From the NCBI GenBank assembly GCA_038227105.1, contig JBBRQB010000003.1, positions 1,054 to 65,053 on the forward strand: a stretch of 64,000 nucleotides of DNA, read 5' to 3'. Origin of the DNA: Candidatus Limnocylindria bacterium (GTDB taxonomy: Bacteria; Chloroflexota; Limnocylindria; P2-11E). Below, in pieces: positions 48,780 through 62,466 of the stretch; the stretch's first letter is position 1; each line of letters begins with the position of its first letter. The notes under the pieces are model-generated. The model was not told the DNA's origin. It made no database searches and saw nothing but the letters and a program-made list of their open reading frames with translations. Both the position numbers and the translations under genes were made by a program.

Positions 48780-49214
48780 ATGCGTGGATTCCTTCGCCGC
48801 GAGAGCGGCCAGTCGATGGTCGAACTCGCACTGACCCTGCCGCTGCTCGTGTTCGCCATCCTCGGTGGCGCTGATATGGCGCGCGCGTTCGCCCTTCAGA
48901 TCGCGGTCGAGAACGGCTCGCGCGCGGGGGCGGAGTCCTACGCCATCGATCAGACGCCGACCAACGCCGAGGCGCAGGCCGCGGTGGTCAATGAGATCAA
49001 CCGCACCCCAACGGCCAATGCCCTGTCCTCGAATGTGACGGTCACGAAAGCGCAGGCTGACGGGGTCACCGCCTGCGTGAGCCCGCCGACGGTCGCCACC
49101 CCCTGTTTCGTCTCGGTGCGCGTCGTGTACGGCTGGTCGACCATCATTGCCTGGCCGTTCGTCCCGAATGGCGGGACCTTCGACCGGACGACGGTCATGC
49201 GGACGTTCTATTGA
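48780..49214 (+). CDS. TadE-like pilus assembly / pseudopilin protein
   Basis: TadE N-terminal motif ESGQSMVELALTLPLLVFAILG. Confidence 0.7.
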   Translation: MRGFLRRESGQSMVELALTLPLLVFAILGGADMARAFALQIAVENGSRAGAESYAIDQTPTNAEAQAAVVNEINRTPTANALSSNVTVTKAQADGVTACVSPPTVATPCFVSVRVVYGWSTIIAWPFVPNGGTFDRTTVMRTFY

Positions 49215-49669
49215 TGCGACCGTTCCGACGCTTCGCCCGGGACGACCACGCCCAGGCACTCGTTGAGTTCGCCTTCGTACTGCCGATCTTCCTGCTCGTC
49301 GTGACCGGGATCTTCGACGTGGCCCGCGCGGTCTGGCAGGAGAACACGCTCGCGTACGCCGCGCGCGAGGGCACGCGCTACGCCATCGTCCATGGGGCGT
49401 CCGGGGTGCCGGCCGCCGGTCCGTGCACGAACTGCCTGAACCCGGTGAGCAACAACCTGGGCAACGTCGTCAGCGCCGTCACCAACAATGCCGTCGGTGT
49501 CTACGGGATCGATGTCACGATCGACTACCCCGATGGCGGCAACCAGCGGAATCAGCGGGTGACGGTAGACGCGACCGCTCCGTTCGTTCCGCTTCCGTCC
49601 CAATACCTCCTCGGCAACGCCTTCCAGATCACGCTCCGCGGCGGATCGCAGCTGGTGATCCAGCGATGA
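49211..49669 (+). CDS. TadE-like pilus assembly / pseudopilin protein
   Basis: DDHAQALVEFAFVLPIFLLVVTGIFDV. Confidence 0.7.
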   Translation: MMRPFRRFARDDHAQALVEFAFVLPIFLLVVTGIFDVARAVWQENTLAYAAREGTRYAIVHGASGVPAAGPCTNCLNPVSNNLGNVVSAVTNNAVGVYGIDVTIDYPDGGNQRNQRVTVDATAPFVPLPSQYLLGNAFQITLRGGSQLVIQR

Positions 49670-50997
49670 TCCGCCTGCGGCGGCACTTCGCCCGGGACGA
49701 GGACGGCCAGGCCCTCGTCATGGTGGCGATCGTGTTCATGGCCCTGCTCTTCGTGGTCGGCCTCGCGATCGACGCCGGGCAGCTCTTCGCGGCCAAACGA
49801 ACGCAGCAGGAGGCCGCCGATGCCGCGGCCTTCGCCGGAGCGGTCGTGCTGTACCAGGGCGGCACGGTGGGCCAGGCGACCCAGGCCGCGATCGATGACG
49901 CCTCGAAGAACGGCTTCGTCGATGGCGTCAATAGCACCACGGTCACGGTGAACGGTTCGAACGTCGCATCGAGCAACGCACCGACGACCGGCCTGTACGC
50001 GGGTGAGAGCCCGGTCATGCACGTCGAGGTCGTCGTCGTCCGGCAGGTCAAGACGACACTCGTTCCGGCGGAGGCCGCCTTCAACCCGGTCCGGGCCCGC
50101 GGGGTGGCGGGATCGGAGACGCTCAACAACGGCTATCCGATCATGGCGCTCGGCACCGGATGCGGATCACCGGGTGTCACCGTCTCGTCGAATGAGGACA
50201 TCCACGTCTACGGCGGAGGCATCGTCACCAACTCCTGCGCCGGCTCCGCGGTGACCGGATTCGCGAGCGGGCAGGACCTCCAGATCTGTGCGTCTCCGCC
50301 AGCGGCGTGCACGCCGAACAGCTATGGCTTCCAGACCGTCGGCGGCACCACGGGCAACAGCTTCCCCGCCGGAGTCACGGTCACGACCGGGATCGCACCG
50401 GTCGCGGATCCGTTCGCCGGGTTCCCGAAGCCAGGCGGCAGGAGCTACAACGGCGTCGCCTATCTGCCGACGAATCCCGCGAACATCAGCGGCACGAGCA
50501 CCCACCCCGAAGGGATCTACACGTCCGCGCTCAGCGGGGCGCTGTGCCACGGGATCTACATCCTGAAGGGCGGAGGCTTCAGCGGCATCAGCAAGGACAC
50601 CAACGGCGCGCATGTCGATCCCAACACGGGCACCGCGTGCGATGGGAAGGTCATGATCTACAACACGATGACCAACTGGCCCCTCGCGACGGGCACATGT
50701 TCTGGGATGAGCGGCGACTCGACCATCACCCCGATGACCACCGGAACATACGCGAATATGGCGATCTACCAGGACCCAGCGTGCACGGCGAGCCTGTCGG
50801 AAAGCGGCAGCACGACCCTCAACGCCACCGGGACGATCTACATGCCGAACGGCACGATCGACCTGAACGGCAACCCCGCGACCATCGTGGGTGGGCAGCT
50901 CATCGCGAGCCGGATCAACGTCCAGAACGGCAACCTGACGATCACCTACACCTCGAGCACGACCGCGTCGCCGATCCTTCCCCGCCTCTCGGAATAG
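49666..50997 (+). CDS. TadG-like pilus-assembly protein (Tad_N domain) with a Ser/Thr/Gly/Asn-rich extracellular region
   Basis: DEDGQALVMVAIVFMALLFVVGLAIDAGQLF...QQEAADAAAFAGA matches the TadG N-terminal domain. Confidence 0.7.
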   Translation: MIRLRRHFARDEDGQALVMVAIVFMALLFVVGLAIDAGQLFAAKRTQQEAADAAAFAGAVVLYQGGTVGQATQAAIDDASKNGFVDGVNSTTVTVNGSNVASSNAPTTGLYAGESPVMHVEVVVVRQVKTTLVPAEAAFNPVRARGVAGSETLNNGYPIMALGTGCGSPGVTVSSNEDIHVYGGGIVTNSCAGSAVTGFASGQDLQICASPPAACTPNSYGFQTVGGTTGNSFPAGVTVTTGIAPVADPFAGFPKPGGRSYNGVAYLPTNPANISGTSTHPEGIYTSALSGALCHGIYILKGGGFSGISKDTNGAHVDPNTGTACDGKVMIYNTMTNWPLATGTCSGMSGDSTITPMTTGTYANMAIYQDPACTASLSESGSTTLNATGTIYMPNGTIDLNGNPATIVGGQLIASRINVQNGNLTITYTSSTTASPILPRLSE

Positions 50998-52620
50998 CTA
51001 GAGCCCGAGCTCCGCGGCCACAAGCGCCGGCGGGATCGATGCACAACCGAGCAGCGCGTCGTGGAACGTACGCATCCCGTAGCCCTTCTTCTGGGCGCGC
51101 GAGCGCAGATCGAGGATCGCCGCGCGGCCGAGCGCGTAGCTAGACGGCTGCAGCGGGTAGAGCGTGTACCGCCGGCACTCACCCACCGCGTTCGGCCGCT
51201 CGAGCTTCGGCCCATCCATCATGAAGCGGACCGCCTGCTCGAAGCCGAGCTCTCCGGTGGAGAGCCCGACGTCGACCGTGACCCGCGCCGCACGCCACAG
51301 CAGATCCTTGAGGCGGAGCAGCCGCGTCTCCGGATCGTCGAGGAAGCCGAGCTCGGTCATGAGCTCCTCGACATAAAGACCCCAGCCCTCGATGAACACG
51401 TTCGAGCGGAGCGCCTTCCGCGCGAGCGAGGGATGGTCCGCGGCGATGGACAGCTGCAGGTGGTGGCCCGGGTAACCCTCGTGACACGCGATGACAGCGA
51501 TCCCCTTGCGCGGATGACCCGAGAGACGCTCCTCCTTCACCGCGGCCGGCTCGCCTGCGGCCGGCAGCGTGACCCAGAAGCGCCCACGACGCGATCGCTC
51601 GAACGGACCTGGCTGCACGTACGCCGCGTAAGGCAGCGTCGGGCGCGCGAAGTCGGGCATCGCCTCGACCGTGAGCGACTCGCCCGCCGGGACCGTCGCG
51701 ATCTCGGCGACGTGCGTCGCGTCACGCGAGCGCTCCATGTCCGTCCGGTACGCGGCGACCAGCTCGTCCTCGGCGGGATGCTCCGTGCGGAGACGCTCGA
51801 CCGAGTCGCGCCAGTCGGTGTCGCCGAGATCCTTCGCCGCCACCTGCAGCTTCCCCGCGGTCTCCGCGTACAACTCCTCGCCCCATGCCTTCAGCGATGT
51901 TGCGTCGTACGGGAGCAGCTCTTTGTCATGCAGGAGCGCGTCGAAGGCATCACGGCCGATCGCGAACGTGCCCTTCGCGCGGCGCATGAGGTCGTCGCGG
52001 AGCCACGACGCGTACTGGTCGAGCGCGTCGCCGGCGCGCTTCCCCGCCCCGGTCAGGGCCGCCTTCGCCTTCGACCCATCGGGCGCGAGCGACGGCAGGA
52101 CCGCGCGGACGAACGTCGCGCCCGCGGTCGCGGACTCGCCGGCAACGACAACGTAGACCGGTGGCACACGCTCGGGATCGAGGTTCACGATCGCGTGCCG
52201 CAGCGCGGCGGGCGCCTGCTCGAGCCGCTCCGCGAGGGCCAGCAAGCGCGTCTCGGGGTCGCCCTCCTCGCGGATGAGCGCGTAGTACGCACCGCGCGTG
52301 ATGGCGTCCGAATAGAGCGACGGCTGCCGCACGTGGCGCTGGAACGGCCGGAGCGCGCGCTCGCCGCGGAGCTCTCCAAGGATGAGCGCGAGGTCGGTGC
52401 GATCCGTCGGACCCAGCGGCGAAGGGTCATGGGACTCGAACACGTGCAGCCAGCGATCGGTGAACGCGTCGCGGTCGGCGAAGCCCTCCGCGCTCAGGTC
52501 GGCGAGCCGATCGTCGAAGTCGTGGAGCCCGGCGATCGTCGCAGCCGTCGGATCCAACGCATATCGGTCATGGACAAAGAGATCGATCTGCTGTCGAAGC
52601 ACGCTCGGCTCACCTACCAT
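50998..52620 (-). CDS. DUF885-family metallopeptidase-like protein
   Basis: HEGYPGHHLQ (HExxPGHH). 540 aa. No signal peptide. Confidence 0.7.
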   Translation of the reverse strand: MVGEPSVLRQQIDLFVHDRYALDPTAATIAGLHDFDDRLADLSAEGFADRDAFTDRWLHVFESHDPSPLGPTDRTDLALILGELRGERALRPFQRHVRQPSLYSDAITRGAYYALIREEGDPETRLLALAERLEQAPAALRHAIVNLDPERVPPVYVVVAGESATAGATFVRAVLPSLAPDGSKAKAALTGAGKRAGDALDQYASWLRDDLMRRAKGTFAIGRDAFDALLHDKELLPYDATSLKAWGEELYAETAGKLQVAAKDLGDTDWRDSVERLRTEHPAEDELVAAYRTDMERSRDATHVAEIATVPAGESLTVEAMPDFARPTLPYAAYVQPGPFERSRRGRFWVTLPAAGEPAAVKEERLSGHPRKGIAVIACHEGYPGHHLQLSIAADHPSLARKALRSNVFIEGWGLYVEELMTELGFLDDPETRLLRLKDLLWRAARVTVDVGLSTGELGFEQAVRFMMDGPKLERPNAVGECRRYTLYPLQPSSYALGRAAILDLRSRAQKKGYGMRTFHDALLGCASIPPALVAAELGL

Positions 52621-52661
52621 CGAACCAGCAGTCTTTCACGCTGCAGGGGAGTTCGTCCGTC

Positions 52662-53015
52662 ATGGCCGTCAAAGAGAAGTTTCCCGATTGCGAACATTGC
52701 GAAGCACCGTGCTGCCGTCGCCAGTTCATGGAGGACGAGGATGGCTGGTTCAAGCTGGCCGACATCCGGCCCATCTACCTCGCCGCCGGTACGGACATCA
52801 AGGTCGTCGGATGGGGCCAGCAGCCTGACGGGCGGCAGCCGATGATCCAGTGCAACGCCTACGACGTCGATCACTCCGCGTGCACGATCTACCAGAGCCG
52901 GCCGGAGCACTGCCGCACCTACGACTGCCGGGACGATGACCCGGACGAATGGGAAGCACGCGCGCACTGCGACCTTGACCGTCACCGCAAGCTTGCCCTC
53001 ATGCGCAAGCCGTGA
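52662..53015 (+). CDS. YkgJ/UPF0153-family Cys-cluster protein (CxxCxxCC)
   Basis: FPDCEHCEAPCCRRQF. Confidence 0.7.
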   Translation: MAVKEKFPDCEHCEAPCCRRQFMEDEDGWFKLADIRPIYLAAGTDIKVVGWGQQPDGRQPMIQCNAYDVDHSACTIYQSRPEHCRTYDCRDDDPDEWEARAHCDLDRHRKLALMRKP

Positions 53016-53139
53016 AGCACACGCGCGCCGCACAGCAACGCTCCGCTCAGTGGCCCTTCGGATGCGGTGGGCCACCTCGCGGAGCATCGCCGCAAGCACC
53101 TCGATACGGTGCTCGCCGTCAAGCGTGGAGCGCGATCCG

Positions 53140-53565
53140 CTAGTTGACCGTGAAGGTCATGTGCATGCCACTGGCGTAGTGGCCGACCTCGTTGCAGATC
53201 AGCACGTAGTGGCCCGCGGCCAGGGCAACGGTGAAGGTCTTGGACGCGCCGGCCTCGATCTCACCCGTCTCGCCGAGGTTCCCGGTCTCGTCCATCTTGC
53301 CGACGGTCTCGGTGCCGGCGGGGATCTTGTCCTGGGCGACGTCCGTCTTGAGGACGACGAGCTCGTGCACGACCGCGCCGGTGTTCTTGACCACGAACGT
53401 GACCGGACCGGCGGCGATGGAGGTCTTGTCCACCTGGATCGTCATGTCGTTCAGGTTCGCCTTGACCGTTCCGGCCGGGGCCGTTGCCGGTGAGACTGCG
53501 GCACCGCAGCCTGCGAGCAGGACCGCGGTGAGCCCGACGATGGCGATGGAGTTCAGCTTGATCAT
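53140..53565 (-). CDS. Cupredoxin (type-1 blue copper) lipoprotein
   Basis: Lipobox LLAGC. Copper ligands: His (VVHEL), CNEVGHYASGMHM (Cys-x4-His-x4-Met). AAGGAAGTGA RBS 8 nt upstream. Confidence 0.75.
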   Translation of the reverse strand: MIKLNSIAIVGLTAVLLAGCGAAVSPATAPAGTVKANLNDMTIQVDKTSIAAGPVTFVVKNTGAVVHELVVLKTDVAQDKIPAGTETVGKMDETGNLGETGEIEAGASKTFTVALAAGHYVLICNEVGHYASGMHMTFTVN

Positions 53566-53668
53566 GTTGTTGTCACTTCCTTTGCGGCCATCCTGTGCCT
53601 CGCGGGGGCGCCTGGGGTGTGCCGTGAGGCCCCGAAACAGGTGCCGAAGGTCCCGTCCTGCGCCCGGT

Positions 53669-54247
53669 CTACGAGCGCTGGAGGGCGGCCGCGAGCTCCT
53701 CCGGGGTGTTCACGTTCGTGAACGACCGGAGCGTTGGATCCACCTCGCGGAGCTCGCGCTCCTCGACCGGCTGCACGCGGACCTCGTCGAAGAAGCTGAT
53801 CACGCGCATCTTGCCCGCAGCAAGCGCTCGTTCCATCGGAGCGACGCAGGCCTTCGTGTACACAGCGTGCAGCGTCTCGAATTCGCCACCGACCTTCGGG
53901 ATGACGACGTCGGCCTCGAAGCGATGCTCCAGCAGCACGCGCCAGACCTCGGCTGACAGGAACGGCAAGTCGCACGCGGCGACGAGTACGCGCTCATGCG
54001 CCGCCGCGCTCACGCCGGTCGCGATCCCACCGAGCGCGCCGCCCTCGGGGAACCGGTCCGGCACGACGCGGAGACCGAGCGACCCGTACCTCGGGTCGTT
54101 TGCCACGACGATGACCTCATCCGCGACCTGCGCCAGCACCATCGCGACGCGCGCGATGAGCGGCTCGCCGTCGAGCTCGATCCAAGCCTTGTCCTGCCCC
54201 ATGCGCCGGCTCTTGCCGCCGGCCATGATCGCCGCCGACACGCTCAC
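53669..54247 (-). CDS. mobA: Molybdenum cofactor guanylyltransferase
   Basis: IMAGGKSRRMGQDK signature. Confidence 0.85.
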   Translation of the reverse strand: MSVSAAIMAGGKSRRMGQDKAWIELDGEPLIARVAMVLAQVADEVIVVANDPRYGSLGLRVVPDRFPEGGALGGIATGVSAAAHERVLVAACDLPFLSAEVWRVLLEHRFEADVVIPKVGGEFETLHAVYTKACVAPMERALAAGKMRVISFFDEVRVQPVEERELREVDPTLRSFTNVNTPEELAAALQRS

Positions 54248-54747
54248 GCCGTCGCTCCGATGCGCGCGAGGATGAATGCCGCGATCGCGGGCGCATCGTT
54301 CAGACCGAAGTGCGTCACGTCCGGGCGGGCCTCGAAGTCGGTCACGGTCGCGATGAGGTTCCGGTCGTTGAGACAGAGCAGATCCGTCGAGAGTGCGGCG
54401 CGCGCGACCTCGATCTTCGGGATGGGCTCGGCCTTGAATCCCTCGACGACGAGCAGGTCGAGATCGTGCCGGACGTACCGCTCGATGACCGCCTCGAGCC
54501 CGGCAGCAGGGTCGCCATCATCGATCACCGCGGTCTGCCCGCCGCCGGTCACGATCGTCTGCACGATGCCGGTCCGGCGCGCGCGGTAGCTGTCCTTCTC
54601 CGGGCGGTCGATCTCGAACCCGGCATGGGCGTGCTTCAGGTAGCCGACCCGGCGGCCGCCGGAGGCCAGGAGCGGCAGGACCGCCAGCAGCAGCGTCGTC
54701 TTCCCGCTGTTGTGCCGGCCGACAAAGGCGATCCGCGGAGCGTTCAC
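54244..54747 (-). CDS. mobB: Molybdopterin-guanine dinucleotide biosynthesis adaptor protein
   Basis: P-loop VGRHNSGKTTLL. GTG start. Confidence 0.8.
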   Translation of the reverse strand: MNAPRIAFVGRHNSGKTTLLLAVLPLLASGGRRVGYLKHAHAGFEIDRPEKDSYRARRTGIVQTIVTGGGQTAVIDDGDPAAGLEAVIERYVRHDLDLLVVEGFKAEPIPKIEVARAALSTDLLCLNDRNLIATVTDFEARPDVTHFGLNDAPAIAAFILARIGATA

Positions 54748-54830
54748 GCGGGCGGAGTGTACGGTCCGCACACATCTCCTCCACTCAGGTGATACCGGCA
54801 TCGGGCGCGTGGTGGATACCGTGGACGGTC

Positions 54831-55565: not shown

Positions 55566-55838
55566 CTAGGCCGCGAGCGGGGTCCCACAGCTGGCGCAGA
55601 ACTTCGCGCTCTCGTTGTTCGGCTTCCCGCAGCTCGAGCAGTACCTGCCTGCGGCAGCGGCGGTCGCGGTCGTCGCGGCGACGGGCTTCGAGACATCCTT
55701 CTCCGCTTCCTCGCGGAAGCTCCGGATGCCCTTGCCGACCTGACCGAAGACGGTGGGGAGCTTCCCCGCCCCGAAGACGATCAGGACGACGACGACGACC
55801 AGGATGAGCTCGGGACCACCAATACTCGGCATGATCAC
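55566..55838 (-). CDS. tatA: TatA/E-family twin-arginine translocase subunit fused to a C-terminal zinc ribbon
   Basis: TatA core MPSIGGPELILVVVVVLIVFGAGKLP plus amphipathic helix, then YCSSCGKPNNESAKFCASCGTPL. Confidence 0.7.
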   Translation of the reverse strand: MIMPSIGGPELILVVVVVLIVFGAGKLPTVFGQVGKGIRSFREEAEKDVSKPVAATTATAAAAGRYCSSCGKPNNESAKFCASCGTPLAA

Positions 55839-55890: not shown

Positions 55891-56700
55891 TCAACCAAAG
55901 AGGCCATCGAGAAGAGTGAGGAACAACGGGACGACGATGAGCAAGAGGAGCGCCGGGAGGTAGCACAGGACGAGGGTGAGCATCAGCTTTCCCTCGACCT
56001 TCGCCGCAGCCTCGAGCGAGCATGCACGGCGACGCGTGCGTGCTGCGTCGCGGGCGTCTCGTATCACGGAGAGCGAGCCTTGACCGAGATCCCGAGACCG
56101 TTCGAGATCGGCTGCGAGCACGGCGAGCTGATCCAGACCCTGCACCTGCGCTCGAATGCCCAAGGACTTGAACAGCGGAGCACCCAGCGCATAGGCATCG
56201 GCGGCACCGCGCATGGTCAGGTCCAGCAACGGAGATCCGCTCACCGTACGCGCGAGTGCCGACAGGGCTGTCTCGACAGGCCGGCCTGCCGCGGCCAGCG
56301 CTTCGAGGCGCTCGAACATGGTCACCATCGGCCGATCGGCCGCTCGCCGGCACGCCGCCGCCCGACGGCCGACGACCAACGATGGCAGCACGAACCCGCT
56401 GTACGCGCACAGGATCGCGGCGATCCCGCCCATCCCGAGGAAGGTGCCGGCGAGGCCGCCGGTCGCACCGCCGGCGAGCAAGCCGAGGATCTTCACGGCG
56501 ACGATCTCGGTCTGCGTGCAGCGGATGCCGGACTGCTCGAGGTCACGGTCGATCACCGGCCGCCAACGAGCACGAGATCGCGCTACCGGCCTTCCCGAAA
56601 GCAACAGTGCGAGGCGCTGCTCGATCTCCGGCTCCCGCCGCAACCCGACCATGGCGGCGCAGATCGCCACCGCGGCGCAGAGCGCACCGATCTGGATCAT
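55891..56700 (-). CDS. tadC: Flp pilus assembly inner-membrane protein TadC (T2SS-F domain)
   Basis: GspF-like helical domain between TM segments. Operon position. Confidence 0.75.
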   Translation of the reverse strand: MIQIGALCAAVAICAAMVGLRREPEIEQRLALLLSGRPVARSRARWRPVIDRDLEQSGIRCTQTEIVAVKILGLLAGGATGGLAGTFLGMGGIAAILCAYSGFVLPSLVVGRRAAACRRAADRPMVTMFERLEALAAAGRPVETALSALARTVSGSPLLDLTMRGAADAYALGAPLFKSLGIRAQVQGLDQLAVLAADLERSRDLGQGSLSVIRDARDAARTRRRACSLEAAAKVEGKLMLTLVLCYLPALLLLIVVPLFLTLLDGLFG

Positions 56701-57536
56701 GCCACGACGTTCCGAATGAGCTGGCGGCTGACGGCGATCCCCGCGACCTCGAGCACCACCGCGCCCGGCACCAGCACGGTCCTCCCCAGCGGGCTTCCGA
56801 GCGTTGCCGCGAGTCCCGGCATGGTGATGAAGAGATACAACGCGAGGACCGGCACGACCGCGGCGAGCATGTATATCTGGAACCGGATGCCGGCCGATCG
56901 CGCGCGAACCTCGCTCTCCACGCTCTCGTCGTACCGCACGAGCTCCGCGACCGCGTTCAGGAGTGCCGCAGCGCGCTCGACGGGCATGCGCTCCGAGACG
57001 CCGAGGGCAAGGGTCCGCATCGCATCCGCGACCCGCGGGTCCTGGGTATTGCTCGCCCCGAACGTGAGTGCGCTGTCCAGGGGATCTCCCAGATCGAATC
57101 GCGCCAGCGCGTCCTCGAACGGCCGCCGGGCGATCCGGTCATCGCACGCCGCCGCCGCGCGACGCAAGGCTTCCGGTAGCGCAAGACCGGATCGGAGTCC
57201 CGCATGCGTCGTCACGATCAAAGGTGCGAGTGCAGCGCGTGCGCGATCGCGGGCCGCTGCGGCACGCACACGAGCAGCGATGGATGGTGCGGCTGCAAGG
57301 ACACCAGCACCGGCGATGGCACTGCCCAAAGCGGATCCGACGATGGCCCCGAACACGATCGCCGCCGCGCGGCTGGCTTCCCACCGGCGGAGCGAGATGC
57401 GCATGCCCGCGTCACGGAGTGCCAACAGATCCGGATGCGTCGGTGCCGCGAGGCGCCACCGGGCGGCCATCGGAAGAAGCCCGGTCGCGACGATCGCGGC
57501 CGCGAGTCCCAACGCGCCGACGATACTGGCGCTCAA
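56697..57536 (-). CDS. tadB: Flp pilus assembly inner-membrane protein TadB (T2SS-F domain)
   Basis: TTG start overlapping the tadA TGA (TTGA). N-terminal TM followed by a T2SSF-like domain. Confidence 0.7.
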   Translation of the reverse strand: MSASIVGALGLAAAIVATGLLPMAARWRLAAPTHPDLLALRDAGMRISLRRWEASRAAAIVFGAIVGSALGSAIAGAGVLAAAPSIAARVRAAAARDRARAALAPLIVTTHAGLRSGLALPEALRRAAAACDDRIARRPFEDALARFDLGDPLDSALTFGASNTQDPRVADAMRTLALGVSERMPVERAAALLNAVAELVRYDESVESEVRARSAGIRFQIYMLAAVVPVLALYLFITMPGLAATLGSPLGRTVLVPGAVVLEVAGIAVSRQLIRNVVA

Positions 57537-58633
57537 CGATCCTCCCGCTGCCAGACGATCGTCGCCAGCTCGTCCTCGACGCGGGCGATCTCCCGGACGA
57601 CGCGCCGGCCGTCCGACCGGCGGTCGAGGTGCACCACGATGTCGACGGCGCGCGCGACGTGCCGCGTGATGGCCGCGGCCGAAAGCTCGCCGGCCCGCGC
57701 CAGCAGGAGCTCGAGGCGCCCGAGCGCATCGCGTGCGGAGCCGGCGTGCAACGTGGTGAGCGAGCCTGCGTGGCCCGTGCTCAGCGCCTCCAGCAGTGCC
57801 GACGCATCTCGCGGCGAGCGGACCTCGCCGACGATGATCCGGTCGGGTCGCATGCGGAGTGCATTGACGACGAGATCCGCAACCCCGATCCCACCATCTC
57901 TCGAGGGCACGCACTCGAGGTGCAGCGCGTGGTGGTGCGGGAGCACAAGCTCGGTCGTGTCCTCGATCACGATGATCCGCTCGTCGGCCGGTATCGCGGA
58001 GGCGAGCGATCGCAGCAACGTACTCTTGCCAGAGCCAGTCGCTCCGCTTACGAGGATGTTCCGGCGGCGCCGCACCGCGTCGATCAACATTGCCGCTGCC
58101 TCCCCGCTCAGCGCACCACCGGCGACCCAGGACGACGGGCCTGCGAGAGGCACCGAAAGCGGACGGAACTTTCGGATCGAAAGCGATGGCCCGCCGACGG
58201 GCTCGATCACCGCGTTCGCCCGTGAGCCGTCGCGCATCCTCGCGTCGACGAACGGATGCTCGATCGTGAGCTCGCGCCCGACACTGGCCGCGATCCGGTA
58301 GGCCAGGTCCGATAGCTCGGCCTGGTCGCGGAACGCGATCGCGACACGCTCCAGCCGGCCGTCGCGCTCCACGAATATCTGATCCGGTGCGTTCACCAGC
58401 ACATCGGTCACACGTGGGTCGTCGAGCAGCGGTTGCAGGCAGCCGAAACCGAACAGATCAGCGCACAGACGCTCGAGCTCCGGCTCCGCAAGGCGCGCGC
58501 CGGCCGCGGTGCGGACGCGCTCGCGGATGAGCCGCCGCCGCGCCGGGTCGGCGTACAGGGCGAGGAGGGTAGCCGGGTCGAGACCCGCCGCGACCTCGTT
58601 GCGCACGCGAGCGACGATCGCCGGGTCGATCAT
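57533..58633 (-). CDS. tadA: CpaF/TadA-family pilus assembly ATPase
   Basis: Walker A VSGATGSGKSTLL. Asp box IIVGEVR. His box TLHAGS. Confidence 0.9.
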   Translation of the reverse strand: MIDPAIVARVRNEVAAGLDPATLLALYADPARRRLIRERVRTAAGARLAEPELERLCADLFGFGCLQPLLDDPRVTDVLVNAPDQIFVERDGRLERVAIAFRDQAELSDLAYRIAASVGRELTIEHPFVDARMRDGSRANAVIEPVGGPSLSIRKFRPLSVPLAGPSSWVAGGALSGEAAAMLIDAVRRRRNILVSGATGSGKSTLLRSLASAIPADERIIVIEDTTELVLPHHHALHLECVPSRDGGIGVADLVVNALRMRPDRIIVGEVRSPRDASALLEALSTGHAGSLTTLHAGSARDALGRLELLLARAGELSAAAITRHVARAVDIVVHLDRRSDGRRVVREIARVEDELATIVWQREDR

Positions 58634-59397
58634 GTAAGCCGCCGGATGAGGGCATCGACGGACCGCACGGTCGGCGCGCGTGTCGCGAAGTCGTCCGCCG
58701 CGAGGAACGGATCGCGTGGGATCGACGCGAGGAGCTGCCACGGAAGTCTGCCGGCGATGCGCGACGCATCATCGTCGCTCGCGCCGACAACGACCGACCC
58801 GGCAACGCGTTGGCCTTCGAGGACGGTCGCCGAGCAAAAGGCCGCTTGCAGCAGTGCCACGGTCGGTCCGATGACGACACACAACCGGTCGACGATGCTC
58901 AGCACCGCGCTATCCAGCGCCTCGGCTCCCGTGCCGAGATCGAGGACGACCGGCCGTGTTTCCCGCAGCTGGTCGATGAGCTGGGCGATCCGCGGTCCAT
59001 CCCACGTTCGGTGGAGCTCCGGCGTACCCGGCAGGAAGGGAACGTCTCCCCAGCGGGACACCAGCTCGCCGACTTTTCCGGGACGCAGGAGGGCGTCGGC
59101 GACGGTGGCGCCGCCGCTGCGCGCACGCAGCGCCAGCGTCGGGACCCGTCGGTCCAGATCGACGAGCACGGCTGGCCGGCGGGCGGCCGCGGACCGGTGC
59201 GCCACGAGCGCGGACAACGTCGACGTGCCGGCGCCCGCGGACAGCGACCAGAACGCGACCACCTGTCGCTCGGGGAGCCCCGCGGGCCGCACGGGTGTCA
59301 GCGTTTCAAGCGGCTGTTCGTTGCCAGTCGCATCCCGCATCAATGCGAGGGCGAGCTGCGCGATCGGGGAGGCGTCGAGCAGTGCGCGCCAGCTCAT
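58630..59397 (-). CDS. tadZ: TadZ/CpaE-like ParA/MinD-family protein with a deviant Walker A
   Basis: VVAFWSLSAGAGTSTLSALVA in place of GGKGGVGKTT. ATGA overlaps on both sides. Confidence 0.6.
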   Translation of the reverse strand: MSWRALLDASPIAQLALALMRDATGNEQPLETLTPVRPAGLPERQVVAFWSLSAGAGTSTLSALVAHRSAAARRPAVLVDLDRRVPTLALRARSGGATVADALLRPGKVGELVSRWGDVPFLPGTPELHRTWDGPRIAQLIDQLRETRPVVLDLGTGAEALDSAVLSIVDRLCVVIGPTVALLQAAFCSATVLEGQRVAGSVVVGASDDDASRIAGRLPWQLLASIPRDPFLAADDFATRAPTVRSVDALIRRLT

Positions 59398-59945
59398 CCG
59401 TTGATCCAGCGGGTGAGAACGCCATCTGCTGCGTAGGCGTGCAGTGCCGATGGCGTCGCGGTCAGGTCGAACAGGACCGGCCGAAGTACGCGTCGCGAAG
59501 CACCGAGCGTCGAACGAGCGCACCACGCCGAACGATGGATCTCGAGAAGCGCATCGGTCTCGCGAAGAAGTCCCCGGCAGCGGGTGCGCCTCCGGCCACC
59601 CAGCGGCGATACGCCCATGAAGCGGCGGGTCAGGCGCGCCGTCGCATCGGACAGCGGCACGACCCGAACATCCAGGACATCGATCTCGTCCGGCCCGCTG
59701 AGCCGAGCGGGCGCCAGCCCGATCCCGATGGCGGCCACAAGACCGGTCGGTTCGGGCACGCCGCCATCGCGCGGCGCCGTACGGACCCCTCGCAACGCAA
59801 GCGCTCTGCGCACGGAAAGATCGTGACGGTCATCGACCGTCAGGCACACCGCACCGGCCCTCCGCCACAAACGGAACGTGCCGGCCACAGCACACGCGAG
59901 GTCAAGGTCCAGGTGGCCATCGGAGCCCAGCTGCAGCGTCGTCAC
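59394..59945 (-). CDS. Hypothetical protein embedded in the tad operon (translationally coupled to cpaB and tadZ)
   Basis: No motif recognised. Overlapping stop/start codons on both ends. Confidence 0.4.
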   Translation of the reverse strand: MTTLQLGSDGHLDLDLACAVAGTFRLWRRAGAVCLTVDDRHDLSVRRALALRGVRTAPRDGGVPEPTGLVAAIGIGLAPARLSGPDEIDVLDVRVVPLSDATARLTRRFMGVSPLGGRRRTRCRGLLRETDALLEIHRSAWCARSTLGASRRVLRPVLFDLTATPSALHAYAADGVLTRWING

Positions 59946-60592
59946 TCGTGCACCGGAATGAAGACGAGGACGAAGGTGCTCGTTGCGATCCGGTCGGCTA
60001 CCCGCAGCTCATCGCTCGGTGGGAGCGACACGACGACGCTCCCAAGCCGTTCGAGTGCCGCTGCGCCGGGGCGACTGGACGCACCCGGCTGCATCGGTCC
60101 GCCGTTCTCACCACGCACGTCCAGGACGGTCACGTTGGAGGCGATGAGCTCCGTGGTCCGCCCGGCCGGTGCGCGGCCGCTCACCGGAATGGCGATCACG
60201 TCGACGTGGGCGCCGGCAACGAGGGCGCCGCCGACCGCTTGTGACGCGGTCACGGGGATCGCGAGGGCTCGCTGACCAGCCGGCGGCATGAGGCCGCTGT
60301 GGAACGCCGCGGCACCCGCGCCAAGTGCCGGTGCGATCAAGATCTGACCCGGCCAGAGCGGCGCACGCGGCACTCGTCCGATTGCGTCATCGATCGACCG
60401 GACTGATCCAGGTGGAGCGACGTCGGGCGGGAGCTCGCGGACCTCAAGGTCGGCGGCGGCGATCGGACGATCGGCATCCAGGCCGTGCGCCGCGACGACG
60501 ACGCTCACCCGCTGCAAGCCCGAGTAGTAGATCCACCCAGCTATCGACCCGCAGATGAGGGCGAGGGCCAGCAGGCCGCGCTGTCCTATCAC
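59942..60592 (-). CDS. cpaB: Flp pilus assembly protein CpaB/RcpC (SAF domain)
   Basis: N-terminal TM LLALALICGSIAGWIYY. SAF-like VSVVVAAHGLDADRPIAAADL. C-terminal VGGALVAGAHVDVIA. Confidence 0.7.
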   Translation of the reverse strand: MIGQRGLLALALICGSIAGWIYYSGLQRVSVVVAAHGLDADRPIAAADLEVRELPPDVAPPGSVRSIDDAIGRVPRAPLWPGQILIAPALGAGAAAFHSGLMPPAGQRALAIPVTASQAVGGALVAGAHVDVIAIPVSGRAPAGRTTELIASNVTVLDVRGENGGPMQPGASSRPGAAALERLGSVVVSLPPSDELRVADRIATSTFVLVFIPVHE

Positions 60593-61494
60593 TCGACGAG
60601 ACCTGGCGCGCGCACGCTGACGCGGATGGTGAGATCACGGGCGATGCCGTCGACGAATTCGAGCGTGAACGTCGTGACCCACACGCTCCCGGTCGGTGGC
60701 AGGCGATCCCAGCGGGCGACGAATCGTTGCGAGGCGTCGCCGCCGGCCGGCCCGAGGAGGACGGTCTCTCCACCGGTGAATCGCCAGCGAACGACCCCCG
60801 GATCGGCGAACGAGATCGCGATGCGCCTCCCGCGCAGGACTTCCATGGCACGGTCGGGCAGCGGGCCGGGCGCCGGCCGCCTGGGAGCGACCGGCTCCGA
60901 TGTCTCACGGGCCGAGGGAGGACCGGTCCGATCCGCCGGCAGATCGATCACAGGGGTGACCGCTCCCTTCGGCGCGGCCGACGCCGCTGCAGGTGCGGCA
61001 CGCTCGGTACGCGCCGGTTCGACGACGGGCGTGCTCCCCTGGCTCGCGCGCGCGATCTCGAGATCGTCCTGGAAGAAGACGACGCTCACTGGAATGAAGC
61101 CCGCCTCGGTGCGGATGTAGTTCTCGTAGTACGTGCCCGCGACGGATCGACCATCGGCCATCGCGGCTCGCCCGTTGAAGGCCGCACCGTCGAAGTCGCT
61201 GCGGCTGCCTGTCACGACGGTCTCGAGGACCCGGGCGTATGAGCCGGTGGTCTCGTGGACGGTCTCGGTCGAGTAGACGGTGGCTGGGCCGCTCCGGGTG
61301 ACGACATCGTCGACGTATGTCTCGGTCACCAGGTAGATCCCGGCAGGAGGCTCGATCGGCTCGGGCGTGGACCACTGGACCGGAGGTTCAGGTTCCGGGT
61401 ACCACTCCTCCCCGTCCGGATCCCAGGCACGTGCGGGCGACGACGTGCCAAGGATCGCGAGGATCGAAACGACGGCGACCAGTGAACGTTTCAA
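60589..61494 (-). CDS. Secreted hypothetical protein (signal peptide, Pro/Glu-rich N-terminus) within the tad operon
   Basis: MKRSLVAVVSILAILGTSSPARA signal. No known domain. Confidence 0.5.
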   Translation of the reverse strand: MKRSLVAVVSILAILGTSSPARAWDPDGEEWYPEPEPPVQWSTPEPIEPPAGIYLVTETYVDDVVTRSGPATVYSTETVHETTGSYARVLETVVTGSRSDFDGAAFNGRAAMADGRSVAGTYYENYIRTEAGFIPVSVVFFQDDLEIARASQGSTPVVEPARTERAAPAAASAAPKGAVTPVIDLPADRTGPPSARETSEPVAPRRPAPGPLPDRAMEVLRGRRIAISFADPGVVRWRFTGGETVLLGPAGGDASQRFVARWDRLPPTGSVWVTTFTLEFVDGIARDLTIRVSVRAPGLVE

Positions 61495-61910
61495 CGAGCG
61501 CCTCCAGCGGTCTTGATCGCGATATCAGTGACGGGATGAAGGAACAGGGCACCGAACACCGGTGTGCGCACCGGGACCGTCGCCGAGATGCGCACGGTCG
61601 GTAAATCTGGATCGACGCGCACCGAGGCGTTCGCGGCGATCGCGGACGGACTGATCGCGAGCGCCGCAGCGACGCTCTCGAGGTTGTCGGCGAACACCGA
61701 GCGCGCGATCGCTGACGCATCGGACGCGAGCTGCAATCGCCCGGTGCGGGCAAGCTCGGCGTCGTCCTGATCGTTCACCGCGACGAGCACGGCGAGATCC
61801 GCGGCCGAGTGCACACGTGCTTCGACGATCCGAAGGGCCCCGAGCTCGAGCGCGCTTGCCAGGATGACCAGCAGGACCGGCAGCAGACCGATCGTCGTGA
61901 TCGCCGTCAT
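61491..61910 (-). CDS. TadE/TadG-like pseudopilin candidate
   Basis: N-terminal hydrophobic segment with Glu (LLPVLLVILASALELG). ATGA overlap with the upstream tadE-like gene. Confidence 0.5.
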   Translation of the reverse strand: MTAITTIGLLPVLLVILASALELGALRIVEARVHSAADLAVLVAVNDQDDAELARTGRLQLASDASAIARSVFADNLESVAAALAISPSAIAANASVRVDPDLPTVRISATVPVRTPVFGALFLHPVTDIAIKTAGGAR

Positions 61911-62293
61911 CGGTCGAGCTCGCCTCGCACCACCGCCGTCGTGCGGAGGGGAATGTCGGCGCCGAAAAGAAAGGGGATCTGGATGGACGCGGTGCTGCGA
62001 ACGGTGACGGTCAACGGCTGCCGCCATCCGACGCGCGATGGCGCGATGTCGAGGATGGCATCGGCTGCCGAAGCGCCGGTCGAACGAAGGGTGTCGGCGA
62101 ACAGTGCGCGCACCTCGGGCGTATCGCCGCCGACCTCGGCGGCGTAGCGAGCGACTTGAATGGTCGCGCTCTCCTGCGCGAGCCAACGCTGGAACAGGCC
62201 GCCGAACTCGATGATCGAGAACAGCATCGGCACGAGCATGGTGACCATGAGCACCGTCTCGAGGGTCGCGAGCCCGCGGTCGTCTCGAACCAC
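61907..62293 (-). CDS. TadE-like pseudopilin
   Basis: DRGLATLETVLMVTMLVPMLFSIIEFG. GTG start 2 nt after the flp stop. Confidence 0.65.
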   Translation of the reverse strand: MVRDDRGLATLETVLMVTMLVPMLFSIIEFGGLFQRWLAQESATIQVARYAAEVGGDTPEVRALFADTLRSTGASAADAILDIAPSRVGWRQPLTVTVRSTASIQIPFLFGADIPLRTTAVVRGELDR

Positions 62294-62295
62294 GC

Positions 62296-62466
62296 TTAGC
62301 GGACCGCACCCATCTGCGTGACGAGGCTCTGCAGGCGCACGACGAGACCGTTGTTCCACGCTTGGACACCCACAACGAGCGTGCCCAGGACCACCGCCGC
62401 GCCGATGATGTACTCGATCGTTGCCAGGCCCTCTTCTCGGACAGCGAACCGCCTGATGCGTGTCAC
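62296..62466 (-). CDS. flp: Flp-family type IVb pilin
   Basis: VTRIRRFAVREEG|LATIEYIIGAAVVLG matches the Flp motif (G/xxxxEY). 56 aa. GTG start with an AAGGAGGTG RBS 4 nt upstream. Confidence 0.8.
   Translation of the reverse strand: MTRIRRFAVREEGLATIEYIIGAAVVLGTLVVGVQAWNNGLVVRLQSLVTQMGAVR

What the first reader, a model, noticed from the sequence alone, without database searches (positions are those of the whole stretch)
48780..62466. Secretin-less Tad/Flp pilus locus split into two pseudopilin blocks around an island of unrelated genes
The minus-strand operon runs flp, two tadE-like genes, a secreted unknown, cpaB, an unknown, a tadZ-like gene, tadA, tadB and tadC, all stop/start coupled. 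It lacks a prepilin peptidase (TadV) and a secretin (RcpA), as expected for a monoderm. About 4.5 kb away, an island of DUF885, YkgJ, cupredoxin, mobA, mobB, a PT-rich protein and a tatA fusion separates it from a second plus-strand block of two TadE-like proteins and one TadG-like protein with a long S/T/G/N-rich tail. This is five TadE/G-type minor pilins for a single Flp gene. The architecture is more elaborate than the mycobacterial Rv3654c-Rv3660c locus.
Basis: partly seen in the sequence, partly recalled or inferred. Interest (0 to 1): 0.6.

Follow-up and report, generated by a model that had tools for sequence, protein, structure and literature searches.

The report
Split Tad pilus locus, soil Chloroflexota
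This is a real but fairly ordinary gene set for a Tad (Flp) adhesive pilus in an uncultured soil bacterium of the Chloroflexota class Limnocylindria, and the genes that appear to split it are conserved housekeeping neighbours, not an inserted island.

Summary
On the minus strand, ten genes run flp, TadE, a small TadG-type protein, a secreted unknown, CpaB, an unknown, a TadZ-like gene, TadA, TadB and TadC; nine of the ten are linked by 4-nt overlaps. About 4.9 kb away, a plus-strand TadE-TadE-TadG triplet converges on it. There is no secretin in the operon, no prepilin peptidase in the 64-kb window, and only one Flp gene.

The interpretation needs correcting in three ways.
- The organism is Limnocylindria (Chloroflexota), not an actinobacterium.
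- The "island" is conserved backbone. The same order recurs in about 10 related contigs, and distant relatives keep a TatA-Zn-ribbon/YkgJ/DUF885 core. The pilus blocks are the variable parts: one lineage lacks the operon but keeps the triplet, one shows the reverse, and many carry a fourth TadG-like gene.
- A missing TadV is not a monoderm trait. The leader motifs imply an unlinked peptidase, as in Micrococcus luteus.

The triplet most likely forms a CpaJ/K/L-like tip complex, but its TadG carries a predicted beta-solenoid head rather than a vWA domain. TadZ lacks the receiver domain and the P-loop lysines. Two operon genes are clade-specific unknowns.

Verdict: a new member of a known kind, of modest interest.

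The parts
48780..49214 (+). TadE_p1, a TadE-like minor pilin of 144 aa. Its leader is MRGFLRRESG|QSMVELAL.
   Evidence: PF07811, E 1.3e-9. The G-X4-E leader is conserved in orthologues. Identity to relatives is 76-97%. The public gene call starts at 48816 and so cuts off the leader.
49214..49669 (+). TadE_p2, a TadE-like minor pilin of 151 aa. Its leader is ...DDHA|QALVEF, with G or A at position -1 in orthologues.
   Evidence: PF07811, E 8.8e-15. Leader motif shown. Its ATG overlaps the stop codon of TadE_p1.
49666..50997 (+). TadG_p3, a TadG-related modular minor pilin of 443 aa. It has an N-terminal pilin-like module (leader EDG|QALVM, no Glu5) and a C-terminal beta-solenoid domain.
   Evidence: PF13400, E 9e-8, with a weak DUF7305 hit. 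It has 688 homologues, which sources name 'pilus assembly protein TadG-related'. The AF2 model has pLDDT 86.5. The best fold matches are DUF3494 ice-binding beta-solenoids (E about 2e-3, TM 0.45), with no vWA match.
50998..52620 (-). DUF885 protein, cytoplasmic, with an HEGYPGHH motif. It is a conserved backbone gene and probably not part of the pilus system.
   Evidence: PF05960, E 1e-90. It lies next to the TadG block in most relatives. It is not found within 10 kb of TadA in 78 loci from other lineages.
52662..53015 (+). CxxCxxCC (YkgJ-like) Fe/Zn-cluster protein, a backbone gene.
   Evidence: PF03692, E 2.4e-4. It is conserved between DUF885 and TatA_Zn, including in L001 and L108.
53140..53565 (-). 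Cupredoxin lipoprotein, a variable backbone gene.
   Evidence: PF13473 and PF00127. Among the relatives it is present only in L083, L098 and L118.
53669..54247 (-). MobA (molybdenum cofactor guanylyltransferase), a backbone gene.
   Evidence: PF12804, E 5e-39. It is absent from the equivalent position in L001 and L108.
54244..54771 (-). MobB, a backbone gene.
   Evidence: PF03205, E 7e-37. Start taken from the public gene call.
54831..55562 (+). Pro/Thr-rich protein with two hydrophobic segments and no family assignment. Its presence varies between relatives.
   Evidence: No Pfam hit. It is 55-88% identical in L083-L086 and L093, and was not detected in L081, L087 or L090. TM-like segments.
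55566..55832 (-). TatA fused to a C-terminal zinc ribbon. It lies 58 nt downstream of tadC on the same strand and may be co-transcribed with the operon.
   Evidence: PF02416, E 1e-12, plus PF13240, E 2e-8. It is directly downstream of tadC in every relative that has the operon. It is also present in L081/L082, which lack the operon.
55891..56700 (-). TadC, a platform protein of 269 aa.
   Evidence: PF00482 at 22.7 bits, just under the cutoff. It has four TM-like segments and conserved synteny.
56697..57536 (-). TadB, a platform protein of 279 aa with a TTG start.
   Evidence: PF00482, E 1e-8. It overlaps the TadA stop by 4 nt. The orthologue is called at the same length in L083.
57533..58633 (-). 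TadA/CpaF secretion ATPase of 366 aa.
   Evidence: PF00437, E 5e-46. Walker A is GATGSGKST; the Asp box, Walker B and His box are also intact. Sources name it 'pilus assembly protein CpaF'.
58630..59397 (-). TadZ-like protein of 255 aa. It consists of the ParA/MinD-like domain only, with no N-terminal receiver domain, and its P-loop is SAGAGTST without lysines.
   Evidence: No Pfam hit. Weak TIGR03815 Ssd match at 26.6 bits against a cutoff of 154. hhalign against 64 TadZ proteins gives probability 97.8%, E 1.3e-12, aligned to the C-terminal domain only. P-loop sequence.
59394..59945 (-). unk183, a clade-specific protein of 183 aa, Arg-rich with conserved Cys and Trp residues and no TM segment. 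Function unknown.
   Evidence: No Pfam, NCBIfam, PDB or TadZ similarity. It is conserved in the same position in L001, L083, L086, L090 and L093 at 37-85% identity.
59942..60592 (-). CpaB/RcpC of 216 aa, with an N-terminal anchor, a SAF domain and an RcpC domain.
   Evidence: TIGR03177 at 89.2 bits, above the cutoff of 71. PF16976, E 7e-12, and PF08666.
60589..61494 (-). sec301, a clade-specific secreted protein of 301 aa. It has a signal peptide and two beta-rich domains joined by a Pro-rich disordered linker.
   Evidence: No Pfam or NCBIfam hit. It has 252 unnamed homologues. Only 107 representative clusters match among 1.84 billion proteins. The AF2 model has pLDDT 68 and has no significant PDB fold match.
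61491..61910 (-). TadE_m2, a small TadG/TadF-type pseudopilin of 139 aa. In this genome it starts directly at M-TAITT with no Gly-containing leader.
   Evidence: PF13400, E 1e-5. Weak TIGR03816 match. The orthologues in L001 and L002 have the leaders DDGG|TAAV and EDEG|TAAI.
61907..62293 (-). TadE_m1, a TadE-like pseudopilin of 128 aa with the leader DDRG|LATLE.
   Evidence: PF07811, E 7e-5. Conserved leader shown.
62296..62466 (-). Flp-type major prepilin of 56 aa, with the leader ...REEG|LATIEY and a mature length of 43 aa. It is the only one in the window.
   Evidence: The AAGGAGG ribosome-binding site and the sequence are. It is 72-85% identical in L001, L002 and L090. The only Pfam hit is a weak DUF4244 match, and Flp_Fap does not match. 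It is the only Flp-like prepilin in the window.

Best explanation
**What it is.** The region encodes the Tad (Flp, type IVc) pilus machinery of an uncultured Limnocylindria (Chloroflexota) bacterium, presumably a monoderm.

**How the operon works (inferred from homology).**
- The minus-strand operon makes the filament and the motor.
- Flp is the major pilin.
- TadE_m1 and TadE_m2 are operon-encoded pseudopilins, equivalent to TadE/TadF.
- TadA is the hexameric ATPase, and TadB/TadC form the membrane platform.
- A receiver-less TadZ with a degenerate P-loop probably acts as a scaffold.
- CpaB is the membrane-anchored alignment ring.
- Two clade-specific proteins, secreted sec301 and cytoplasmic unk183, are probably accessory parts adapted to this cell envelope.
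- No secretin is needed.

**The plus-strand triplet (inferred).** By analogy with Caulobacter CpaJ/CpaK/CpaL, TadE_p1, TadE_p2 and TadG_p3 most likely form the tripartite complex that primes assembly and ends up at the pilus tip. There the beta-solenoid head of TadG_p3 would serve as the adhesive or sensing module.

**The peptidase (inferred).** A prepilin peptidase encoded elsewhere in the genome removes the short leaders.

**The genes in between (shown by synteny).** These are ordinary housekeeping genes whose order is ancestral to the clade. The "split" is a stable, inherited arrangement, not an insertion.
For: **Domain assignments.** Pfam and NCBIfam assign all the core parts, and the TadA motifs are intact.

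**Translational coupling.** The operon genes from TadE_m1 to TadC are joined by 4-nt overlaps.

**Leader motifs.** G/A-X4-E leaders are conserved in Flp, TadE_m1, TadE_p1 and TadE_p2 and in their orthologues.

**Taxonomy.** The nearest TadA relatives are a Chloroflexota MAG and a Ca. Limnocylindria MAG, at 69% and 65% identity. TadG and sec301 homologues are also labelled Limnocylindria.

**Linkage of the two blocks.**
- Ten loci show both blocks flanking the same backbone: the window, L083-L087, L090, L093, L098 and L108.
- TadG_p3 and sec301 homologues appear on contigs of identical length: 65505, 19093, 32718, 27455 and 98250 bp.

**Tad association of the triplet type.** In other phyla, TadE/TadE/TadG(about 400 aa) sets lie within tad loci.

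**Tip-complex model.** The CpaJ/K/L model comes from the literature.

**TadG_p3 structure.** The model shows a pilin-like module plus a beta-solenoid.

**Precedent in monoderms.** An unlinked tadV and two separate tad clusters serving one Flp are documented in the monoderm M. luteus. rcpC-tadZABC clusters are already known in Chloroflexota.
Against: - No prepilin peptidase was found in the window or in any of about 35 related loci, each covering up to +/-10 kb. Processing is therefore assumed, not shown.
- L081/L082 keep a well-conserved triplet (87%, 81% and 72% identity) with no tad operon at the site.
- L106 keeps the operon with no triplet next to DUF885, and L094 has only the larger TadG2 gene. 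The two blocks are therefore separable.
- TadG_p3 has no vWA/MIDAS domain, so the CpaL analogy is partial.
- TadZ lacks the P-loop lysines and the receiver domain.
- TadE_m2 in this genome has no recognisable cleavage site.
- No expression or structural data exist for this uncultured lineage.
Confidence: 0.7

Rival explanations
1. The plus-strand TadE-TadE-TadG triplet is a separate module. It would work with another type IV filament machine elsewhere in the genome, or on its own as a membrane-anchored surface adhesin. It would sit near the tad operon only because of inherited gene order.
For: - L081/L082 retain the triplet at high identity, but the neighbouring tad operon is replaced by a cyclase/AAA_16 gene.
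- L106 has the operon without the triplet beside DUF885.
- The triplet sits on the opposite strand, with its own conserved upstream elements.
- The operon already carries its own two pseudopilins.
Against: - Both blocks flank the same backbone in 10 of 13 loci where both sides can be seen.
- The same kind of triplet lies inside tad loci in other phyla.
- The window holds no other filament ATPase, platform or pilin gene.
- The leaders fit the same G/A-X4-E peptidase motif as Flp.
Confidence: 0.2
2. The locus is a decaying, non-functional remnant. It has no peptidase or secretin, its TadZ has lost its catalytic lysines and receiver domain, and one pseudopilin has lost its leader.
For: - No A24 peptidase in the window.
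- TadZ P-loop is SAGAGTST.
- TadE_m2 lacks the Gly cleavage site here.
- The operon is absent from one related lineage.
Against: - All 13 pilus genes are intact open reading frames with coding-type GC3.
- The TadA catalytic motifs are intact.
- Orthologues are conserved in many relatives. TadA is 80-96% identical within the close set, and the degenerate TadZ P-loop is itself conserved.
- An unlinked tadV is normal in actinobacteria.
Confidence: 0.06
3. The conserved TatA-Zn-ribbon/YkgJ/DUF885 core between the two blocks is functionally part of the pilus system. For example, the cytoplasmic DUF885 metalloprotease-like protein could remove prepilin leaders in place of a TadV.
For: - The three-gene core sits between the two tad blocks in all relatives, including the most distant ones, L001 and L108.
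- TatA_Zn always follows tadC on the same strand.
- No A24 motif was found in any Limnocylindria locus or in the Chloroflexota TadA loci sampled.
Against: - The core persists where the operon is absent (L081/L082) or the triplet is absent (L102, L106).
- DUF885 was not found within 10 kb of TadA in 78 loci from other lineages.
- DUF885 has no membrane segment, whereas all known prepilin peptidases are polytopic aspartic proteases. This last point rests on established knowledge.
Confidence: 0.04

Closest known systems
Canonical Tad/Flp (type IVc) pilus loci: Aggregatibacter actinomycetemcomitans flp-tad and Caulobacter crescentus pilA-cpa
   Same: - Flp-type prepilin with a G/XXXXEY site.
- TadE-type pseudopilins and a PF13400 TadG-type protein.
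- CpaB/RcpC, a TadZ/CpaE-like protein, the TadA/CpaF ATPase and the TadB/TadC platform.
- A two-TadE plus one-large-TadG set matching the CpaJ/CpaK/CpaL tip-complex model.
   Different: - No secretin, pilotin or TadD, and no linked TadV.
- TadZ lacks the receiver domain and the P-loop lysines.
- TadG carries a beta-solenoid head instead of vWA/MIDAS.
- There are two extra clade-specific proteins.
- The minor-pilin triplet lies on the opposite strand, 4.9 kb away.
Micrococcus luteus tad-1/tad-2 clusters (a monoderm actinobacterium; PMC4322843)
   Same: - A monoderm with no secretin.
- tadV is unlinked from the tad genes.
- The Tad genes are spread over two separate clusters that serve a single Flp.
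- PF13400-type TadG-like proteins are present.
   Different: - M. luteus duplicates tadA/B/C in both clusters and lacks TadZ. Here the second block holds only minor pilins, and a TadZ-like gene is present.
- CpaB, sec301 and unk183 are not described there.
- The role in M. luteus is DNA uptake; the role here is unknown.
Mycobacterium tuberculosis Rv3654c-Rv3660c Flp locus
   Same: A secretin-less set of tadZ(ssd)-tadA-tadB-tadC-flp-tadE-tadF. The TadZ-like protein, TadE_m2 and the N-terminus of TadG_p3 give weak hits to the Ssd (TIGR03815) and Rv3654c (TIGR03816) models.
   Different: - The scores are far below the equivalog cutoffs (26.6 against 154, and 22.7 and 16.7 against 51).
- The gene order differs: here flp comes first.
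- There are additional CpaB, sec301, unk183 and triplet genes.
- The phylum is different.
Chloroflexota tad clusters (rcpC-tadZABC of Roseiflexus and Ca. Viridilinea; the Litorilinea aerophila tad operon)
   Same: The same phylum, with rcpC/cpaB retained without a secretin, and with pili observed by EM or cryo-ET in those species.
   Different: - The TadA proteins of the other Chloroflexota classes sampled are only about 41-47% identical.
- No TadE/G-type genes were detected within 10 kb of TadA in the Anaerolineae loci sampled.
- sec301 and unk183 are restricted to the Limnocylindria clade.

Membership tests
Tad/Flp (type IVc) pilus system | TadA/CpaF-type ATPase with Walker A, Asp box, Walker B and His box | tested here: met
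   PF00437, E 5e-46. The motifs are GATGSGKST, IIVIED, RMRPDRIIVGE and GHAGSLTTLH.
Tad/Flp (type IVc) pilus system | Two paralogous platform proteins, TadB and TadC (T2SSF domain) | tested here: met
   TadB matches PF00482 at 35.6 bits, above the cutoff. TadC scores 22.7 bits, just below the 25.2 cutoff. Both have four TM-like segments.
Tad/Flp (type IVc) pilus system | Short Flp prepilin (50-80 aa) with a G/XXXXEY processing site followed by about 20 hydrophobic residues | tested here: met
   The protein is 56 aa, with REEG|LATIEYIIGAAVVLGTLVVGV. The Pfam Flp_Fap model does not match; the only hit is a weak DUF4244 match. Membership therefore rests on the motif, the size and the genomic position.
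Tad/Flp (type IVc) pilus system | TadE/TadF pseudopilins (PF07811) and a TadG-type protein (PF13400) | tested here: met
   Three PF07811 proteins and two PF13400 proteins score above their cutoffs.
Tad/Flp (type IVc) pilus system | TadZ/CpaE: an N-terminal receiver-like domain plus a ParA/MinD-type ATPase domain | tested here: inconclusive
   Only the C-terminal domain is present (hhalign 97.8%, template columns 115-408 of 440). The P-loop lacks lysines. The upstream unk183 shows no similarity to the TadZ N-terminal domain.
Tad/Flp (type IVc) pilus system | Dedicated prepilin peptidase TadV/CpaA (A24 family, without a methyltransferase domain) | tested here: not met
   None was found in the 64-kb window by motif scan or by Pfam scan of the membrane-protein candidates. 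None was found in the related loci. The rest of the genome could not be searched. Unlinked tadV genes are known in monoderms.
Tad/Flp (type IVc) pilus system | RcpA/CpaC secretin (diderm systems only) | tested here: not met
   No secretin domain was found in any operon protein. This is expected if the cell has no outer membrane. Chloroflexota are regarded as monoderm.
Tad/Flp (type IVc) pilus system | RcpC/CpaB alignment protein | tested here: met
   TIGR03177 at 89.2 bits, above the cutoff of 71. PF16976 and PF08666 also match.
CpaJ/CpaK/CpaL-type tripartite tip (initiation) complex | Two small TadE-like minor pilins plus one large protein that has an N-terminal pilin-like module | tested here: met
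   The gene triplet spans 48780-50997. The TadG_p3 model shows a long N-terminal helix, a beta-sheet and a large C-terminal domain.
CpaJ/CpaK/CpaL-type tripartite tip (initiation) complex | vWA domain with a MIDAS motif in the large subunit | tested here: not met
   There is no vWA Pfam hit. The fold search returns only beta-solenoid (ice-binding-protein-like) matches.
CpaJ/CpaK/CpaL-type tripartite tip (initiation) complex | The three proteins form a complex that caps the Flp filament | not testable with these tools
   No multimer prediction or experiment was available.
Actinobacterial Rv3654c-Rv3660c-type Flp locus (NCBIfam equivalogs TIGR03815 and TIGR03816) | Scores above the equivalog cutoffs for Ssd (TadZ homologue) and for the Rv3654c-family TadE-like protein | tested here: not met
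   TIGR03815 scores 26.6 bits against a cutoff of 154.45. TIGR03816 scores 22.7 and 16.7 bits against a cutoff of 50.95.

The most novel reading that the evidence does not exclude
Limnocylindria carry a distinct monoderm subtype of the Tad machine, with three unusual features.
- The clade-specific secreted two-domain protein sec301 and the cytoplasmic protein unk183 would be structural parts. They would take over envelope-crossing and TadZ-receiver functions.
- The pilus would be capped by a beta-solenoid (ice-binding-protein-like) TadG head.
- The always-interposed TatA-Zn/YkgJ/DUF885 core would be functionally tied to the system, at the extreme with DUF885 acting as a non-A24 leader peptidase.

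The probability given applies to the whole package, including a functional role for the interposed core. The narrower claim that sec301 and unk183 are true Tad components is much more likely, at about 0.5.
Probability: 0.05. Interest if true: 0.7.

Novelty: new member of a known kind. Interest (0 to 1): 0.3.

Why it matters
**Why it could matter.** Tad pili of single-membrane bacteria are poorly understood. It is unclear how the fibre crosses the wall without a secretin, what CpaB does there, and what sits at the tip. This locus shows that an abundant, uncultured soil lineage keeps a complete-looking, well-conserved Tad gene set with:
- a receiver-less TadZ;
- two lineage-specific operon proteins;
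- a TadG whose head is a predicted beta-solenoid rather than a vWA domain.

It also gives a clear natural experiment. Relatives that lost one block but kept the other could show whether the minor-pilin triplet depends on the neighbouring machine.

**Limits.** Split tad loci, unlinked peptidases and multiple TadE/G genes are all already documented, and the organism is not cultured. The practical value is therefore mainly better annotation and a few testable hypotheses.

Tried and rejected
1. **unk183 as the missing N-terminal receiver domain of a split TadZ.** Rejected as undetectable. hhalign against 64 TadZ proteins gave probability 0.04%. There was no PDB sequence hit and no Pfam hit in any of six orthologues.

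2. **sec301 as a secretin substitute or a known adhesin fold.**
   - The AF2 model has only moderate confidence (pLDDT 68).
   - Foldseek against the PDB gave nothing below E 0.07, only generic Ig-like or cadherin-like sandwiches.
   - A profile search of 1.84 billion representatives found only 107 clusters, so there is no link to a wider family.

3. **A riboswitch or other known RNA upstream of either block.** No Rfam match at E <= 1 in 48000-63500.

4. **Sigma-70 promoters and terminators.** No promoter-like site was found, and terminator-like sites were at the chance level.

5. **A shared regulatory motif between the two upstream regions.** Each has its own conserved blocks, but none is obviously shared.

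6. **Locating the prepilin peptidase.**
   - A motif scan of the window and all 118 loci and a Pfam scan of the window's membrane proteins found none in this clade.
The rest of the genome could therefore not be searched.

7. **A second tad locus continuing beyond the plus block.** Rejected. Upstream lie the opp ABC transporter, an aminotransferase and DUF554, both here and in relatives.

8. **An actinobacterial origin.** Rejected on the basis of the nearest relatives.

Full report

The window has about 70% G+C, so raw ORF lists are useless. I called genes from codon-position GC and checked them with Pfam and NCBIfam.

- **Plus strand.** Two TadE proteins (PF07811, E 1.3e-9 and 8.8e-15) and a 443-aa TadG-type protein (PF13400, E 9e-8, with a weak DUF7305 hit) occupy 48780-50997.
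- **Minus strand.** A ten-gene run occupies 62466-55891: Flp, TadE, a small PF13400 protein, a secreted 301-aa unknown, CpaB (TIGR03177, 89 bits against a cutoff of 71), a 183-aa unknown, a 255-aa TadZ-like protein, TadA (PF00437, E 5e-46), TadB and TadC.
- **In between.** DUF885, a CxxCxxCC protein, a cupredoxin lipoprotein, MobA, MobB, a Pro/Thr-rich protein and a TatA + zinc-ribbon fusion.

Further points confirmed:
- Every junction from TadE_m1 to TadC is a 4-nt overlap, and TadA keeps all four ATPase motifs.
- Flp has a strong AAGGAGG ribosome-binding site.
- No operon protein is a secretin.
- The whole window holds no A24 peptidase motif, and no A24 Pfam hit among its membrane proteins.
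- Only five TadE/G-type genes and one Flp-like prepilin are present.
- Public gene calls for the same contig agree on TadA, Flp, TadG_p3 and sec301.

**2. Whose genome is it?**

- The closest TadA relatives in one-genome-per-species GTDB are a Chloroflexota MAG (69% identity) and a Candidatus Limnocylindria MAG (65%). Everything else is at or below 48%.
- Homologues of TadG_p3 and sec301 are labelled Limnocylindria where a name exists. A few carry labels from other phyla, such as Actinobacteria or Ca. Saccharimonadales.
The actinobacterial equivalog models for Ssd and Rv3654c score far below their cutoffs.
- Chloroflexota are generally regarded as monoderm. rcpC-tadZABC clusters, and pili seen by EM, are already reported in other classes of the phylum.

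**3. Is the "island" an island?**

No. I looked at neighbourhoods in two ways: through homologues of TadG_p3, and through a metagenome scan anchored on the neutral backbone gene DUF885. Both sets were compared with all window proteins.

The recurring order is:
- opp ABC;
- TadE-TadE-TadG, often followed by a fourth PF13400 gene of about 415 or 680-740 aa;
- DUF885, YkgJ, some variable genes, MobA, MobB, the PT-rich gene and TatA-Zn;
- TadC back to Flp.

Ten loci show both pilus blocks around this backbone: the window, L083-L087, L090, L093, L098 and L108. In the most distant members (L001, with TadA 69% identical, and L108, with DUF885 59% identical), the spacer shrinks to TatA-Zn, YkgJ and DUF885. 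The Mob genes, the PT-rich gene and the cupredoxin are therefore later additions to an old arrangement.

The variable elements are the pilus blocks themselves.
- **L081/L082** keep the backbone and a well-conserved triplet (87%, 81% and 72% identity). Between TatA-Zn and the DinB gene that flanks flp in the window, they carry a guanylate-cyclase/AAA_16 gene and an SRPBCC gene instead of the tad operon.
- **L106** keeps tadC-TatA-Zn but has no triplet next to DUF885.
- **L102** likewise has no triplet next to DUF885, but its contig starts at YkgJ, so the operon side cannot be seen.
- **L094** has only the large TadG2 gene between opp and DUF885.

**4. Do the two blocks belong together?**

*For:*
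- The linkage described above.
- Apparent co-occurrence of TadG_p3 and sec301 homologues on contigs of the same length.
- TadE/TadE/TadG(about 400 aa) sets lie inside TadA-centred loci in Acidobacteriota, Gemmatimonadota, Firmicutes, Actinomycetota, Proteobacteria and Thermoflexus.
- The leaders are compatible with the published peptidase consensus G/A-X4-E/F. They read Flp EEG|LATIEY, TadE_m1 G|LATLE, TadE_p1 G|QSMVE and TadE_p2 A|QALVEF. TadG_p3 has Gly but Met or Leu at position +5.

*Against:*
- The two blocks can be lost independently (section 3).
- The triplet has its own conserved upstream elements.

I put about two-to-one odds on a shared system.

**5. What the parts look like.**

- **TadG_p3** models confidently (pLDDT 86.5, pTM 0.74). 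It has a long N-terminal helix, a small sheet (the pilin-like module) and a C-terminal beta-solenoid. The only PDB fold matches are DUF3494-type ice-binding beta-solenoids (E about 2e-3, target TM about 0.45). No vWA domain matches. It therefore resembles CpaL/TadG in its pilin module but not in its head.
- **The TadZ-like protein** aligns to the ParA/MinD-like C-terminal domain of 64 TadZ proteins (probability 97.8%, E 1.3e-12). It lacks the N-terminal receiver-like domain, and its P-loop reads SAGAGTST with no lysine.
- **unk183**, just upstream, is not detectably that missing domain.
- **sec301** has a signal peptide and two beta-rich domains joined by a Pro-rich disordered linker (pLDDT 68). 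It has no significant fold match. Its family is tiny: 107 representative clusters among 1.84 billion proteins.
- **TadE_m2** in this genome starts directly at M-TAITT, whereas its orthologues in L001 and L002 have DDGG|TAAV-type leaders.

**6. Mechanism.**

*Shown:* gene content, gene order, translational coupling, conservation, leader motifs and intact ATPase motifs.

*Inferred from homology with characterised Tad systems:*
- TadA powers extension and retraction on a TadB/TadC platform.
- CpaB forms a membrane-anchored alignment cage.
- TadZ acts as a scaffold.
- Flp polymerises.
- The minor pilins prime assembly and cap the fibre, with the TadG_p3 beta-solenoid exposed at the tip.
- An unlinked TadV processes the leaders. 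This is typical of actinobacteria, and in M. luteus two separate tad clusters serve a single Flp.

*Speculative:* sec301 and unk183 are envelope and cytoplasmic accessories specific to this clade.

**7. Novelty and verdict.**

Each individual oddity has a precedent: no secretin, an unlinked peptidase, split clusters, several TadE/G genes, and CpaB in Chloroflexota. Public annotations already call these proteins CpaF and TadG-related.

The new points are:
- the lineage itself, since no paper was found linking Limnocylindria with Tad pili;
- the beta-solenoid TadG head;
- the receiver-less TadZ;
- two clade-specific operon genes;
- the stable arrangement around a TatA-Zn/YkgJ/DUF885 core.

This makes it a new member of a known kind, with a few variant features. 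Interest is 0.3.

Noticed in passing
window 48669-48684, 48717-48721 and 48737-48748 (upstream of TadE_p1): Three non-coding blocks are conserved across six relatives: TGnCCGCTTTyCrsAC, AGGAC and GGGGGnnGTnAC. They lie about 100, 60 and 35 nt before the start codon. They may be a promoter or operator for the triplet. No Rfam family matches.
   Followed up: partly
window about 62528-62569, minus strand (upstream of flp): A CTAGCC...CGGTAC(C)-N3-5-GGTAC(C/T)GG...CATCGCG element lies about 60-105 nt upstream of flp. It recurs in L001, L002 and L090 and contains repeated GGTACC-like half sites, so it is a candidate operator. It is not obviously shared with the region upstream of the triplet.
   Followed up: partly
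window 55566-55832 (-): A TatA fused to a C-terminal zinc ribbon lies directly downstream of tadC on the same strand in every relative that has the operon. It is still present where the operon is missing. Whether it is the cell's only TatA, and what the zinc ribbon does, is unknown.
   Followed up: partly
L084 11449-13536; L085 9728-11773; also L089, L093, L094, L098, L100, L103, L108, L109, L112, L113, L115: Many relatives carry a fourth gene in the plus block, between TadG and DUF885. It is a second PF13400 protein of about 415 or 680-740 aa. The window lineage lacks it: the stop codons of TadG_p3 and DUF885 abut at 50997/50998. L094 has only this large gene and no TadE/TadE/TadG.
   Followed up: partly
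L081 15426-18845 and L082 13150-16569, compared with window 55891-62466: One lineage has a 995-aa guanylate-cyclase/AAA_16 protein plus an SRPBCC protein exactly where the ten-gene tad operon sits in the window, between TatA-Zn and a DinB homologue. The window has a 1114-aa protein with an N-terminal zinc ribbon at 606-3950; it was not run through any domain scan, so any similarity to that protein is untested.
   Followed up: no
window 48780-48816; L083 2577; L118 3908: Public gene calls start TadE_p1 at an internal Met, giving 132 aa. This removes the conserved class III leader (RESG|QS.VEL). The upstream ATG at 48780 fits the conservation across orthologues.
   Followed up: yes
loci L003-L077 with Chloroflexota labels: The A24 peptidase motif G[GA]GD[VA]K was not found within 10 kb of TadA in any Chloroflexota locus sampled. 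It is present in many proteobacterial, acidobacterial and firmicute loci. An unlinked tadV may therefore be a phylum-wide habit. This rests on a regex scan only.
   Followed up: partly
window 62578-62793 (+): A possible 71-aa hydrophobic ORF ends at the start of the DinB gene, inside the flp-DinB intergenic region. It has high GC3 but an ambiguous frame signal, and no Pfam hit.
   Followed up: no
window 61491-61910 (-), also L090: TadE_m2 has Pro-Met or Pro-Leu where orthologues have Gly-Gly or Glu-Gly before the hydrophobic segment. In the window the start codon itself sits at that position. This pseudopilin may therefore be made without a cleavable leader.
   Followed up: partly
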